This document shows positions 13,722-36,607 of a DNA stretch of 64,000 nucleotides, piece after piece. The position numbers and the translations under genes are program-made. Where the stretch lies: positions 40,362,001 to 40,426,000 of the forward strand of contig NC_042997.1 in assembly GCF_006345805.1 (NCBI RefSeq), given 5' to 3'. Within the stretch, counting starts at the first letter, position 1; each line of letters begins with the position of its first letter. Origin of the DNA: Octopus sinensis. Its lineage: Eukaryota. The notes below the pieces were generated by a model. It ran no database searches. It was not told where the DNA came from and saw nothing but the letters and a program-made list of their open reading frames with translations.

Positions 13722-13770
13722 TATACTCTTTATTGTTAAAGCTGCAAAAACATAACAAAAAAATTACAAA

Positions 13771-13812
13771 AACTGCTACTCAGAGTTTCATGTTCCCGTT
13801 CGTCGGACAGTT
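13771..13812 (-). ncRNA. Type I hammerhead-like motif, U4C core (family of 35594/35921)
   Basis: Minus strand: aactgt CCGACGA ACG ggaa CAT GAAA CTC t GAG TA gcagtt. Confidence 0.65.
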
Positions 13813-33515: not shown

Positions 33516-35593
33516 ATAATTAAAGTAAAAGTAAAATAATGATTCATGGAAGTTGACATTCAAAACGGATTTATTAGTAATATAGGAAGCATACATTAGA
33601 CATTTCTTAAACGATTTCTCGTAAAAAAAATTCTCTTTACAATAATGAATAACAATTTTAGCTTCACTAATTACACTACTCATCAGTGTTTTTACTGACA
33701 TTTTGGTCTTTCAGCTTTTTGCTTTTTTTTTACAGATAATTACGAAATGTATTGAATCGAATATGTAAGAACATATGAATATTAGGAAATTATCATATGG
33801 CTATATGCTTTATATTCGTCTTATACTGTTGAATATCTCTGTACTTCCTCTGTTCAAAAACTGGCATGATGAAATTTGATTTTGATTTATAGGGATAAAT
33901 TAAATAGATAGGAATATACGTACTGAATTGAATCAATCATTTATATCCTTCCAATATTTTTCAATTTTTAATTCAATTTCCCTGCCCCCAGCATTTTCAT
34001 AAGTTTCTTCAAAACGTTCATTAATGCTATTAGATTTTCAGTTAGGCCTTGTTTCATACGTTCTGGGTAATATAAAGATTTCCTTTCATAAGTTCTGAAT
34101 TTCTCTGGAGTTGTAAAAAAATGGGAAATGTTTATCTTATATGATACAAGAACGCCATGAAAATGTGCCTTAATGTTTCACATGTGATACGCAGGAATGC
34201 CAAAGGTTAAGAATTTTTTTATGAAATTGAATATATTCCTACAAATATTTATTTATACATCATTGACATGTTAGCAAGTAGCACAGAGCAAGAAGTATAG
34301 GCAAATTAATTCTAGTTAAAACCTTTTCACTTTGTTTTCACTGCCACTATACTTGAAATAGACTCAAGCTTCACAATGTCCTACTAAAACCCCTTACAAA
34401 TATGCAGTCATTCAGCTTGTAAAAAAGTATTTCCATTAATGTTAGGGTTATTCTCAATATATCTCTATTAAGACACTCATTCAAAGATACGCATATAATT
34501 TATATTAATTTGACTTCGTGTTTTACTTCCTAAATTATATTCCTTTATTTAATATTAGGGAATTCTTATCTCCCTTCATTATTTGAATAAGAAATTGCAA
34601 GTAATTAAGATAAATTGCAAGCAATTACGATAAAAACAAAACCTGAAAAGTACGAAATACTTATTTCAGTTTTTCCTGCATTTTACTAATTTTATAATAG
34701 CTCTAAACATAACATTGAACAAGTTAGTTTCAAATGACTATAGTAGTTTTTTTTGCTATCGAAATATTTTTACTAGCTTGATAGCAACCTCTGCATGCAA
34801 CGGCGCTACACTCTCATTGTGAAAGGTTTGTATTCATAGCTGTAAATTGATAAGATTCATTGACTCATTTGAGAACCAGATGAAGGCAAAATGGCTGACA
34901 TTATGAATGCATTCTCTTCTGTTTTCATGATTAGAATCGTATAAACTTCTGTCTTTAACATAAAAAAATGTCACCCTGGTTCATGTGATAAAGCAAAATT
35001 AATTGGATTTTACTATCCAGCTCTTGAGCGCAAACTGAAGAGTTAAGATGAAAACATTTTACAAAGAAACAAAGAAAAACAAATGTATTCAATAAATATT
35101 TTTCATCATTGCAGCTATAGGGATCTTCGTGCAGATCAATGTATCCATGTTAATGGTTGTGTGCAAGAAGACATGCATTTCAATTAACGAGTGCATGTGC
35201 ACATGTACACACTGCACTATACACGCATCCTCACACACACGGTTGATTTACGACAGCATATTTTAATAAACTAATAAAATTGCTGAAGCGGTGTAGAATG
35301 CGATATCAATAGAATACTTTGCGGAATGTCAGCAGCTGGATCAGGGATTAATATCCGCTGGTAAAACATTTAATCCAAGTAGCGAATAGTAAGCAGCAGC
35401 ACTACTGTGAAACAGGTCATAATTTATCCTTCAACACTTAGTAATGTGGGAATTAAAATTTTACACCATATATATATATATATATATATATATACACCGG
35501 AGTAAACACATAAATGTGAAACAAGGTGGAAAAAAGAGTACTCAAATACCAGTGGTAGAATATATGGTTTATTTAAAGCAGCAGAAAATTCAA

Positions 35594-35643
35594 CAAAACC
35601 TGTTACTCTGAGTTTCACGTTCCCGTTCGTCGGACAGTTTTTG
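35594..35643 (-). ncRNA. Type I hammerhead-like motif, U4C core
   Basis: Minus strand: caaaaactgt CCGACGA ACG ggaa CGT GAAA CTC a GAG TA acaggttttg. Confidence 0.75.
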
Positions 35644-35717
35644 CTAGCAAGAAAAAAACAGGGCTAAGGGTAACAATACAGGAAAAAGGCATAAGGGAGT
35701 ATACAAAGAGTAAACCG

Positions 35718-35753
<36 letters not shown>

Positions 35754-35807
35754 TTTATTTAAAGCAGCAGAACAGGTTTTGTTGAATTTTCTGCTGCTTT
35801 AAATAAA

Positions 35808-35847
<40 letters not shown>

Positions 35848-35920
35848 GCGGTTTACTCTTTGTATACTCCCTTATGCATTTTTCCTGTATTGTTACCCTT
35901 AGCCCTGTTTTTCTTGCTAG

Positions 35921-35970
35921 CAAAAACTGTCCGACGAACGGCAACGTGAAACTCAGAGTAACAGGTTTTG
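35921..35970 (+). ncRNA. Type I hammerhead-like motif, U4C core
   Basis: caaaaactgt CCGACGA(35931-37) ACG gcaa CGT GAAA(35948-51) CTC a GAG TA^acaggttttg. Predicted cut after 35960. Confidence 0.75.
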
Positions 35971-36527
35971 TTGAATTTTCTACTGCTTTAAATAAAGTAT
36001 ATATATATATATATATATATATATCGAATGTCCTGTCCGTGTTTATTGTATCGTCTTCTAAGAGTTATACGTTCTTGTCCATGTTGTATTTTTCTACATA
36101 CCTTAATATATATATATATAGACGCGGTTTACTCTTTGTATACTCATTTATGCCTTTTTCCTGTATTGTTACACTTAGCCCTGTTTTTCTTGTGCTTGTG
36201 CGTATATAAACGTGTGTATGAACCTTTATGGTGCGCGTGTGTGGGGGGGGGGAGGGGGGTTGTATGTATATACATATATATTTGGCGAATGGTGAGAGTA
36301 GGGATGTGTACGTTTTCAAGTGAGGGTGGATGAATGCATACATTTAGGCGCACGCAAGCGGGTGTGCAGGCGCGCATGTGTAGGTATGAACATGCGCGCT
36401 TACGCGAATACTATGAACATTTTTACCCCCTTACTTAGCGGTCATTCAAATAGCTCTTTTGTCTTAATAACGGTCAATCACACAGTAATTTCCCTTTGTA
36501 TAACGGTCATTTTTCATAGCATTTTCC

Positions 36528-36607
36528 CGATAGCCGGATAACTGAAGAGATGGCGGCGTGGATTTCCACCTCGGCATACGAAACTCGGAGTTTAATCATG
36601 GCTACCG
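36528..36607 (+). ncRNA. Type I hammerhead ribozyme motif, canonical core
   Basis: tagccggataa CTGAAGA(36542-48), long imperfect stem II gatggcggcgtgga/tccacctcggcatac, GAAA(36580-83) CTC g GAG TT^taatcatggcta. Confidence 0.75.

What the first reader, a model, noticed from the sequence alone, without database searches (positions are those of the whole stretch)
35753..35808. Insertion fragment begins at the predicted ribozyme cut site
Seen: this 56-bp island between two (TA)n runs is a short inverted arm (ctttatttaaagcagcaga) fused to acaggttttgttgaattttctgctgctttaaataaag. The latter is the sequence 3' of the predicted GUA^ cut (after 35960) in the adjacent full copy; a 2-nt aa microhomology blurs the junction by 1 nt. 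Inference: a cDNA copied to the 5' end of a self-cleaved RNA and then template-switched. This would be genomic evidence that the U4C-variant ribozyme was active in vivo.
Basis: partly seen in the sequence, partly recalled or inferred. Interest (0 to 1): 0.75.

Follow-up and report, generated by a model that had tools for sequence, protein, structure and literature searches.

The report
Inverted repeat-fragment doublet in TA microsatellite
The 56-base island between two TA runs is a head-to-head pair of shortened 3' ends of a very abundant short repeat, and its start at the predicted hammerhead cut site is probably a microhomology coincidence rather than proof that the ribozyme cut in the animal.

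Summary
Window 35753-35808 is a 19-nt inverted arm joined to the last 37 nt of the neighbouring repeat. The join falls at the predicted GUA^A site, give or take one base, because two A's fit either side.

The interpretation does not hold as evidence of ribozyme activity:
- The repeat has at least 4,420 copies and is flanked by (TA)n. Its usual form is an inverted pair of arms whose inner breakpoints vary widely.
- Among 26 such short doublets, only 2 break at the cut site.
- Fragments joined directly to a TA run do pile up there: 9 of 41 at position 117 and 4 at 118.
- The "UA" of GUA is the only TA dinucleotide in that stretch. Junction frequency rises with microhomology to the TA run: 0.15, 2.7 and 9 events per position for 0, 1 and 2 shared bases.
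- The other TA in the module, which is not a ribozyme site, is an even stronger hot spot.
- The U4C and canonical-core subfamilies behave alike.
- No Rfam hammerhead model matches the motif.

The island also sits at the centre of a roughly 430-bp nested palindrome that includes captured flanking DNA. Cleavage is not excluded; I put it near 12%. The read data held could not confirm the assembly.

The parts
35468..35494 (.). (AT)n run at the left edge of the composite locus
   Evidence: read directly
35496..35567 (+). Module H, 72 nt (accggagtaaac...gtagaatatatgg). Family-wide it sits at exactly one end of each doublet. I read it as a likely 'tail' extension.
   Evidence: H lies next to the inverted arm in every H-bearing copy examined
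35568..35653 (-). Inverted copy of module A (el 152->67). It carries the hammerhead-like motif on the minus strand. The cut-site equivalent is 35604|35603.
   Evidence: 96.7% over 151 nt together with B'
35654..35718 (-). Inverted copy of B (el 66->4), a captured piece of a different repeat family
35719..35752 (.). (TA)17 run
35753..35771 (-). Island, left arm: 19 nt, the reverse complement of el 135-153 (up to el 133 if the ambiguous AA is given to this arm)
35772..35808 (+). Island, right part: 37 nt = el 117-153. The start is ambiguous between el 116 and 118.
   Evidence: x_exact 134, y_exact 116, overlap 2
35809..35844 (.). (TA)18 run
35845..35910 (+). B (el 1-66), a captured piece of another repeat, fused to A at a gtttttcttg / cagtttttg similarity
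   Evidence: in 9 of 9 other loci inspected, B runs on as ...ttcttgtgcttgtgcg and not into A
35911..35997 (+). Module A (el 67-153) with the hammerhead-like motif. Helix I strands 35920-35930 and 35961-35973; core CCGACGA 35931-35937 (C at position 4); helix II 35938-35947 with a GCAA loop; GAAA 35948-35951; helix III 35952-35958; GUA 35958-35960; predicted cut 35960|35961.
   Evidence: read by eye; MFE keeps helices I and II (z = 0.32); no Rfam hit
35998..36024 (.). (TA)n run at the 3' end of the direct copy
36122..36192 (+). Third copy of B in its native context: the other repeat family runs on to about 36560
   Evidence: 4 mismatches in 70 against 35845-35914
13760..13812 (-). Older, diverged copy of the hammerhead-like module (87% over 55 nt). 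It also has CCGACGA and has CUCUGAG in helix III.

Best explanation
The island is a head-to-head pair of two 5'-shortened 3' ends (19 nt inverted, 37 nt direct) of an abundant (TA)n-flanked short repeat. It was likely formed when two DNA copies growing towards each other inside a TA run, or one copy that switched strands, were joined at a 2-nt AA microhomology. Its start at the predicted cut site is therefore probably a coincidence.

Shown directly:
- The family has at least 4,420 copies.
- Its standard form is (TA)n - H - inverted A arm (el 153 down to x) - direct A arm (el y up to 154) - (TA)n.
- The outer ends are fixed, while x and y vary from copy to copy.
- Joins carry short microhomologies, and there is exactly one H per doublet.
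- The window locus is such a doublet whose two arms each run on through B and a TA run into a further partial A unit. One arm stops at el 135 and the other at el 116-118.

Inferred:
- The family is a non-autonomous retroelement copied by a Penelope-like element (PLE) enzyme. The one purified PLE enzyme nicks and extends both target strands, and PLE copies are known for inverted 5'-truncated neighbours, partial tandems, a tail at one end and, in the Naiad clade, insertion into (TA)n.
- Where a growing copy ends is set mainly by chance and by microhomology with what it is joined to, not by an RNA end made by the ribozyme.
For: Family size and form:
- 2204 + 2216 exact copies of the 3' 25-mer.
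- I mapped 70 loci taken from the first 100 listed rows, plus 27 of the loci returned by the 154-nt search.
- Of 85 H-bearing elements, 58 are inverted pairs, 16 have only the H-side arm, and 11 have an arm too short to score.
- In the unbiased sample, x and y range from about 60 to 125.
- No pair has H at both ends. One pair (L088) lacks H where its arm is cut off.
- 24 of 25 further short doublets have exactly one H.

Junction census:
- Of 26 arm-to-arm junctions, y falls at 122-124 in 12, 105-108 in 6 and 110-113 in 4. It is 119 in L138, 118-120 in L114, and includes 117 only in the window and L137.
- Junctions with TA runs follow a microhomology gradient of 0.15, 2.7 and 9 events per position.
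- The control TA at el 74-75 is the top junction site in its range.
- Repeated H-to-A joins occur at a shared gagtaa stretch (rows 9, 10, 29, 56, 80).

Link to Penelope-like elements (PLEs):
- GIY-YIG frames of up to 883 aa are abundant here: 5029 first-look candidates, 147 matches among the 150 scored.
- Three related copies (L154, L160, L161) end at a TA run directly behind a shared 3' sequence; a fourth inspected, unrelated in its 3' part (L157), has a TA run about 800 nt behind its stop.
- Published PLE traits match. Both strands are cleaved and extended, and the tail lies between two RT start sites (PMC11167929, main text read).
- Further published traits: 5' truncation, partial tandems, an adjacent inverted 5'-truncated copy, a tail at one end, and (TA)n preference in Naiads (PMC8557442, passages read).
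Against: - The pile-up at el 117/118 is real against a uniform spread (p about 1e-5), and the island's junction is compatible with a start exactly at 117.
- The canonical-core subfamily shows a somewhat higher share at 117/118 (7 of 17 against 6 of 23). That is the direction cleavage would predict, though p = 0.50.
- The control TA (el 74-75) coincides with the centre of the family's palindrome, so it is not a clean control.
- The classification of the rows was done by hand.
- No PLE copy sharing the A or H sequence at its end was found in 15 loci examined, so the link to a PLE enzyme is inference.
- The B-A fusion exists only at this locus. The two long arms therefore need a local re-copying or a DNA-level duplication, which the simple model does not explain.
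Confidence: 0.6

Rival explanations
1. The repeat RNA was cut by its own hammerhead at GUA^A. A cDNA primed in the TA run ran to the new 5' end at el 117, then snapped back or switched template to copy 19 nt of itself. The island would then record ribozyme activity of the U4C core in vivo.
For: - The junction is compatible with a start at el 117.
- By my hand classification of the rows, 15 independent short fragments next to TA-type runs begin at el 117/118. All have different flanks, and the excess over a uniform spread is significant.
- L137 joins a 3-nt inverted arm to exactly el 117.
- Sister copies carry a fully canonical core, CUGAUGA...GAAA...GUA.
- The U4C change lowers activity in vitro yet still allowed viroid infectivity (PMC3088659, Discussion passage read).
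Against: - The excess is what the microhomology gradient predicts for the only TA in the stretch.
- A non-ribozyme TA is a stronger hot spot, and el 108 is a second unexplained hot spot (7 events).
- Arm-to-arm junctions show no excess at 117: 2 of 26.
- U4C and canonical subfamilies do not differ (p = 0.50).
- No Rfam hammerhead model matches, even on the canonical copy within 81 nt.
- Helix II has only 2-3 pairs and lacks the G10.1-C11.1 pair.
- For the one PLE studied in vitro, cleavage was not needed for insertion and no RNA-seq reads ended at the cut site (PMC11167929).
- A zero- to few-base turn, as seen in many family doublets, cannot be an intramolecular snap-back.
Confidence: 0.12
2. 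A DNA-level palindrome. A break or stalled fork in the self-complementary TA runs led to fold-back priming or strand switching during replication or repair. This duplicated the neighbouring B-A copy in inverted orientation and left the island as the asymmetric centre. No reverse transcription was involved in making the island.
For: - The whole of 35568-35998 is a nested palindrome. Its long arms differ by 3 mismatches and one 2-nt indel over about 149 nt.
- The arms include B, which is captured neighbouring DNA of another repeat, and the same B-A fusion is mirrored on both sides.
- That fusion occurs nowhere else.
- The join has a 2-nt microhomology, as fold-back priming would need.
Against: - The left arm ends exactly at the element boundary, where H begins, as in every ordinary family member. 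Chromosomal fold-back would not respect that boundary.
- The same doublet architecture with variable inner ends recurs at dozens of unrelated loci examined, which points to an element-borne process.
- Simple fold-back at a break would duplicate everything to one side, not about 230 bp.
Confidence: 0.2
3. An assembly artefact. Long TA runs and inverted repeats caused a collapsed or chimeric join, and the island does not exist as drawn.
For: - Complex tandem and inverted PLE insertions are noted to upset assemblies (PMC8557442, passage read).
- The public runs on hand did not cover 35720-35854 at all, so nothing independent confirms the structure.
Against: - The contig is 213 Mb long.
- The structure obeys the family's rules: ends, TA runs, one H.
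- The three B copies and the two arms carry their own point differences, which a collapse would not create.
Confidence: 0.05

Closest known systems
Insertion architecture of Penelope-like elements (PLEs): partial tandems, an adjacent inverted 5'-truncated copy, a 'tail' at one end (PMC8557442; PMC11167929)
   Same: - Fixed 3' ends and variable 5' truncation.
- Head-to-head inverted copies, and an optional extension at only one end.
- Insertion into (TA)n, as reported for the Naiad PLE clade, and a hammerhead-type motif near the 3' end.
- Three related PLE copies of this genome end at a TA run directly behind a shared 3' sequence.
   Different: - No coding capacity: units are 80-280 nt.
- The extension H is 72 nt, against the 30-40 nt reported.
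- No PLE sharing its 3' end was found, so mobilisation by a PLE is inferred, not shown.
Minimal and type I hammerheads of metazoan PLEs and non-LTR retrozymes (PMC4209133; PMC7229834)
   Same: - Type I layout, open at helix I.
- A short, nearly palindromic helix III (CUCAGAG) that would allow dimers.
- A full canonical core in sister copies, thousands of copies, and a low-GC repeat.
   Different: - Most copies, including both in the window, have C at core position 4.
- The 10.1-11.1 pair is A with a variable base, not G-C.
- Helix II has 2-3 pairs.
- Copies are dispersed in TA runs rather than in long tandem arrays.
- No Rfam model matches, and no cleavage or circular RNA data exist.
5' inversions of human L1 by twin priming (recalled from memory, no paper read here)
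   Same: Two cDNAs primed from the two strands of one target are joined head to head at microhomology.
   Different: In twin priming the inverted piece comes from a region further 5' in the RNA than the direct piece. Here both arms are the same 3'-terminal stretch, as if two templates, or one template copied twice, were used.
Hammerhead-bearing SINE-like repeats such as Sm-alpha of Schistosoma (recalled; cited inside PMC3088659 and PMC4209133)
   Same: A short, abundant, non-coding repeat that carries a type I hammerhead.
   Different: Sm-alpha hammerheads are canonical and cleave in vitro. This family is untested, mostly U4C, and tied to TA microsatellites and inverted doublets.

Membership tests
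Hammerhead ribozyme (type I) | Conserved core C3 U4 G5 A6 N7 G8 A9 ... G12 A13 A14 ... A15.1-U16.1 H17 | tested here: not met
   - Both window copies read CCGACGA...GAAA...GUA, so U4 is C and every other core base fits.
- Six sister copies (L032, L037, L044, L046, L094, L096) have the full CUGAUGA core.
- The feature is therefore met in relatives but not in the copies the finding rests on.
Hammerhead ribozyme (type I) | Three helices around the core, with helix I formed by the flanks | tested here: inconclusive
   - Helix I pairs 9 of the 10 core-proximal positions by eye, and it and helix II appear in the MFE fold.
- The fold is no better than shuffles (z = 0.32).
- Helix II has 3 pairs with A-U in place of G10.1-C11.1, and base 11.1 varies among copies without compensation.
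- Helix III has 2 pairs plus a triloop, or a dimer stem with one A-A mismatch.
Hammerhead ribozyme (type I) | Match to a curated covariance model (Rfam hammerhead families) | tested here: not met
   - No hit at gathering score on the window.
- No hit at E<=10 on 751 nt, on nine family loci, on 81 nt of a canonical-core copy or on 78 nt of the window copy.
- A PLE copy's own min-hammerhead-like motif, read by eye, also gave no hit. The models may simply be blind to this kind.
Hammerhead ribozyme (type I) | Site-specific self-cleavage | not testable with these tools
   Only assembled contigs of public runs were on hand, and these cannot show RNA ends.
Non-autonomous element mobilised by a Penelope-like element | Insertion signatures: 5' truncation, inverted or tandem neighbours, a tail at one end, microsatellite targets | tested here: met
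   (58 inverted pairs of 85; one H per doublet in 24 of 25). TA runs flank the copies. Tandem short fragments occur in L150 and L151 and at C1:37863168-37863563.
Non-autonomous element mobilised by a Penelope-like element | A coding partner in the same genome that shares the 3' end | tested here: not met
   GIY-YIG frames of up to 883 aa are abundant. In 15 loci the only A or H matches were one incidental insertion (L158). Only 15 of at least 5029 candidates were looked at.
Non-LTR retrozyme (tandem hammerhead repeats giving circular RNA) | Head-to-tail arrays of monomers, each with a hammerhead; circular RNA | tested here: inconclusive
   Most copies are solitary or inverted doublets. A few short tandem groups exist (rows 3-5; L129, L150). 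Circular RNA could not be tested.
L1-type twin-priming 5' inversion | The inverted segment derives from RNA sequence 5' of the direct segment | tested here: not met
   The inverted arm (el 135-153) lies inside the direct part (el 117-153).
MITE / foldback DNA transposon | Terminal inverted repeats at both outer ends of the element | tested here: not met
   The normal family member has H at one outer end and ...aaataaag at the other, and these are not inverted copies of each other. The variable part is the inner junction.

The most novel reading that the evidence does not exclude
The 16 independent short fragments that begin at GUA^A (15 next to TA-type runs, plus the island), in both the canonical and the U4C subfamily, are run-off copies of hammerhead-cleaved RNA. 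This would be the first genomic footprint of in vivo ribozyme processing in a Penelope-type retroelement, and it would show that a U4C core works in an animal.
Probability: 0.12. Interest if true: 0.65.

Novelty: new member of a known kind. Interest (0 to 1): 0.3.

Why it matters
Whether the hammerheads carried by Penelope-like elements and animal retrozymes actually cut during transposition is still open. The one in vitro study found cleavage unnecessary for insertion and saw no RNA-seq reads ending at the site (PMC11167929). A genomic record of cleaved 5' ends would bear directly on that question.

This locus does not supply one. The apparent signal at the cut site is what TA microhomology predicts, because the cleavage triplet GUA contains the target repeat unit.

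What remains useful is the family itself. It offers thousands of dated, non-coding doublets with one tail each, a natural data set on how such elements join their copies. It also warns that truncation-point histograms must be corrected for microhomology before they are read as ribozyme footprints.

Tried and rejected
- Rfam scans gave no hammerhead family anywhere. Only hairpin-like microRNA look-alikes of the palindromes appeared, and I dismissed these as chance or palindrome effects.
- Assembly check with public runs. All 24 runs are kept as short contigs. Four DNA-type runs laid on 35450-36250 gave no cover at 35720-35854 and at the other TA runs, so there is no verdict on the assembly.
- RNA evidence. 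No RNA holder is listed. Four runs guessed to be RNA hold contigs of H and A', some bridging 35603/35604, and show no place where molecules begin or end. Contigs cannot show RNA ends, so there is no verdict.
- The search of earlier findings by place, sequence and words returned nothing.
- Partner search. GIY-YIG loci showed no copy sharing A or H at its end among the 15 examined.
- tRNA-like head. H contains cagtggtagag, which resembles a tRNA A box. I did not follow this up and make no claim on it.
- Reading the three copies with x = 117 (L054, L062, L069) as antisense evidence for the cut site was rejected. L054 and L069 share derived changes on both arms, so they are one lineage, and their join is a 9-10 nt homology between the two strands of helix I. 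L062 really joins at about el 128/75.
- L066 looked like a second island, but it has five extra bases (caaaa) at the join.
- Literature searches for U4C and for hammerhead SINEs at TA microsatellites found no description of this family.

Full report
**1. Observation.**

I number the neighbouring full repeat copy, window 35845-35998, as 'el' 1-154, so el p = 35844 + p. The island at 35753-35808 lies between (TA)17 (35719-35752) and (TA)18 (35809-35844).

- Its first 19 nt are the reverse complement of el 135-153.
- Its last 37 nt equal el 117-153, with one difference from the adjacent copy: G in the island against A at 35982.
- The two A's at 35771-35772 fit either arm, so the direct part may start at el 116, 117 or 118. 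The predicted cut lies between el 116 and 117 (35960|35961).
- The 23-mer across the join is unique in the 2.7-Gb genome.

**2. The 'ribozyme'.**

By eye, el 76-129 can be drawn as a type I hammerhead:

- helix I, gcaaaaacugu with acagguuuugu
- core CCGACGA
- helix II, ACG-GCAA-CGU
- GAAA
- helix III, CUCAGAG
- GUA^A

Both window copies have C at core position 4. Six sister copies have the full CUGAUGA core, always together with acagA after the cut. In the six other copies printed the core departs from CUGAUGA (CCGAYGA in five, UCGAUGA in L061), always together with acagG.

No Rfam hammerhead family matches the window or the canonical-core relatives. The fold is no better than shuffles. The 10.1-11.1 pair is A with a variable base instead of the conserved G-C.

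The short, nearly palindromic helix III is like the dimer-type hammerheads of animal repeats (PMC4209133, passages read). I rate it a plausible hammerhead relic, about two in three. Its activity is unknown.

**3. What the repeat is.**

The 3' 25-mer has 4,420 exact copies. I fetched 70 loci from the first 100 listed rows and mapped them.

The usual member is (TA)n - H (72 nt) - inverted A arm from el 153 down to x - direct A arm from y up to el 154 - (TA)n.

- Of 85 H-bearing elements, 58 are such pairs, 16 have only the H-side arm, and 11 have an arm too short to score.
- x and y range from about 60 to 125. Many pairs are symmetric (x about equal to y), and many show overlaps of a few bases.
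- No pair has H at both ends. One pair (L088) has lost H by truncation.

A third form lacks H. It has about 120 nt of other sequence in front of A, again between TA runs. Chimeras occur (L089, L040).

These traits fit copies made from an RNA 3' end, with frequent template switching:

- fixed outer ends next to a microsatellite
- variable inner ends
- microhomology at the joins
- one extension per doublet

They match what is published for Penelope-like elements (PLEs):

- 5' truncation, partial tandems, an adjacent inverted 5'-truncated copy, a tail at one end, and (TA)n targets in the Naiad clade (PMC8557442, passages read).
- An enzyme that cleaves and extends both target strands and starts reverse transcription at two sites that bracket the tail (PMC11167929, main text read).

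The genome holds many GIY-YIG frames of up to 883 aa. Three related copies end at a TA run directly behind a shared 3' sequence; a fourth, unrelated in its 3' part, has a TA run about 800 nt behind its stop. Two of the related copies carry, by eye, a UUGAUAA...GAAACAUGUA motif about 65 nt before the run. None of the 15 loci examined shares A or H, so the partner is not identified.

**4. The locus as a whole.**

35568-35998 is a nested palindrome: A'-B'-(TA)17-island-(TA)18-B-A. H lies on the left only and a TA run on the right. The long arms differ by 3 mismatches and one 2-nt indel.

B is not part of the family. It is a piece of another repeat (234 first-look candidates). Its native continuation is seen at 36122-36560 and in 9 of 9 other loci inspected. 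The B-A fusion occurs only here.

Read by the family's rules, the locus is one doublet whose two arms were both copied from a longer template: ...A-(TA)n-B-A. The H-bearing arm stops at el 135 of the upstream unit and the other arm at el 116-118. They are joined at AA.

Because the template is unique to this place, a local re-copying or a DNA-level inverted duplication is needed. I cannot tell which.

**5.

(a) Arm-to-arm junctions like the island's. Twenty-six loci have a short inverted arm next to a TA run (the window plus 25 of the hairpin-type rows, fetched and read).

| y (start of direct arm) | Loci |
|---|---|
| 122-124 | 12 |
| 105-108 | 6 |
| 110-113 | 4 (two are one locus seen twice) |
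| 119 | 1 (L138) |
| 118-120 | 1 (L114) |
| includes 117 | 2 (window, L137) |

There is no excess at the cut site. Twenty-four of the 25 fetched loci are ordinary one-H members. The island is the only doublet without H of its own, though it lies inside an H-bearing composite.

(b) Fragments joined directly to a TA run. The genome-wide list has 94 rows. I classified them by hand into:

- 27 arm-to-arm joins
- 6 H-to-A joins
- 18 unclear
- 2 extra rows of one tandem group
- 41 clean truncations

The clean truncations start as follows:

| el start | 94 | 95 | 100 | 101 | 106 | 107 | 108 | 110 | 114 | 117 | 118 | 120 |
|---|---|---|---|---|---|---|---|---|---|---|---|---|
| events | 3 | 2 | 4 | 1 | 3 | 1 | 7 | 2 | 2 | 9 | 4 | 3 |

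Against a uniform spread, 117 stands out (p = 3e-5), and so does 108 (p = 1e-3). (run ending in T, 42 rows) adds two more at 117/118, plus L137.

The 15 loci at 117/118 all have different flanks. Eleven end in a TA run and four in H.

(c) Why this is not evidence of cleavage.

- The T and A of GUA (el 115-116) are the only TA dinucleotide in el 94-124, so a fragment starting at 117 shares two bases with the TA run.
- Counts per position are 0.15 with no shared base (13 positions), 2.7 with one (11 positions) and 9 with two (1 position). The pile-up lies on that gradient.
- The module's other TA (el 74-75, in gcTAgc) is no ribozyme site. In one search (566 rows, first 100 listed), 24 rows read TA-run|GCAAAA(A)CTG, 6 more show the same join in a cTAAcaaaa variant, and 5 more lie behind imperfect runs. 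These occur in all three core subfamilies. That site coincides with the palindrome centre, so the control is suggestive rather than clean.
- The canonical-core subfamily has 7 of 17 clean truncations at 117/118 and the U4C subfamily 6 of 23 (p = 0.50). U4C lowers activity in vitro (PMC3088659, passage read), so cleavage would predict a difference.

**6. Verdict.**

The island is real. It is best read as one more head-to-head joint of this family, formed at an AA microhomology. Its coincidence with the predicted cut site has a chance of the order of one in ten to thirty.

The family-wide pile-up at GUA^ exists, but TA microhomology accounts for it. Cleavage is not excluded. I give it about 0.12 for this junction, because:

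- the junction fits a start at 117
- the canonical subfamily trends in the expected direction
- el 108 shows that factors beyond microhomology shape the ends

**7. What could not be done.**

- The public runs on hand are short contigs. They neither cover the TA runs nor show RNA ends. The assembly and the RNA 5' end therefore remain untested.
- Row classifications are mine, by eye. They rest on exact-anchor matches, so diverged copies are missed.
- Junctions of a TA run directly with TTGTTG (el 124) are undercounted by the patterns used.

Noticed in passing
L032-L101 and L114-L138 (family copies genome-wide); window 35496-35567: Every inverted doublet of the family carries the 72-nt module H at exactly one outer end (no pair with two; 24 of 25 short doublets with one). 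This looks like a large natural sample of the one-sided 'tail' described for Penelope-like elements.
   Followed up: partly
L032, L037, L044, L046, L094, L096 (for example L094:400-620, minus strand): There is a roughly 205-nt H-less form of the repeat between TA runs. It has a fully canonical hammerhead core (CUGAUGA...GAAA...GUA), always linked to acagA after the cut. Non-canonical cores (CCGAYGA, once UCGAUGA) go with acagG.
   Followed up: partly
window 36122-36560; also 35845-35910 and 35654-35718: B belongs to a different, larger repeat family (234 first-look candidates). Its short native 'tatatag' seems to have served as a TA-run target. A 66-nt piece of it was captured into both arms of the palindrome.
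   Followed up: partly
window 36026-36100: A 75-nt stretch between two TA runs is itself very highly repeated in four DNA runs (summed word depth 1e4-7e5). It is probably another short TA-run-dwelling element.
   Followed up: no
L160:2690-2830 (minus strand of the locus), L161:2362-2470, L154:2050-2160: Coding Penelope-like copies (GIY-YIG, open frames of 780-883 aa in L161 and L160; L154's is 147 aa) end in TA runs. By eye, L160 and L161 carry a minimal hammerhead-like motif, UUGAUAA-hairpin-GAAACAUGUA, about 65 nt before the run (L154's version is degenerate); in L161 the hairpin is a clean 5-bp stem, in L160 it is weakened by one change. This would be the U3-A8 core variant with a palindromic CAUG loop. 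Rfam does not see it.
   Followed up: partly
L134, L115, L133 and the many (67,67) pairs such as L015:1430-1588: Many doublets are perfect palindromes with no spacer at the turn. An intramolecular snap-back cannot make these. They point to blunt joining of two copies or to switching onto another nascent strand.
   Followed up: no
rows 9, 10, 29, 56, 80; window 35496-35510 against 35951-35964: The first bases of H (ccggagtaaac) resemble el 108-118 around the cut site (ctcagagtaac). Several independent copies are deleted between these two look-alike stretches.
   Followed up: no
G000:C1:37863168-37863563; L129; L150: There are small head-to-tail groups of shortened units (for example three units at a 173-bp period), so TA runs collect repeated insertions or local duplications.
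   Followed up: no
rows 22, 30, 31, 33, 52, 55, 77: A second pile-up of 5' ends lies at el 108 (TA-run|CTCAGAG), the boundary between GAAA and helix III. With 7 events it exceeds the one-base microhomology class (p = 0.02) and is unexplained.
   Followed up: no
window 13760-13812, minus strand: A diverged copy (87%) of the hammerhead-like module sits in a different upstream context and also has C at core position 4. The U4C state is therefore older than the H-bearing family.
   Followed up: no
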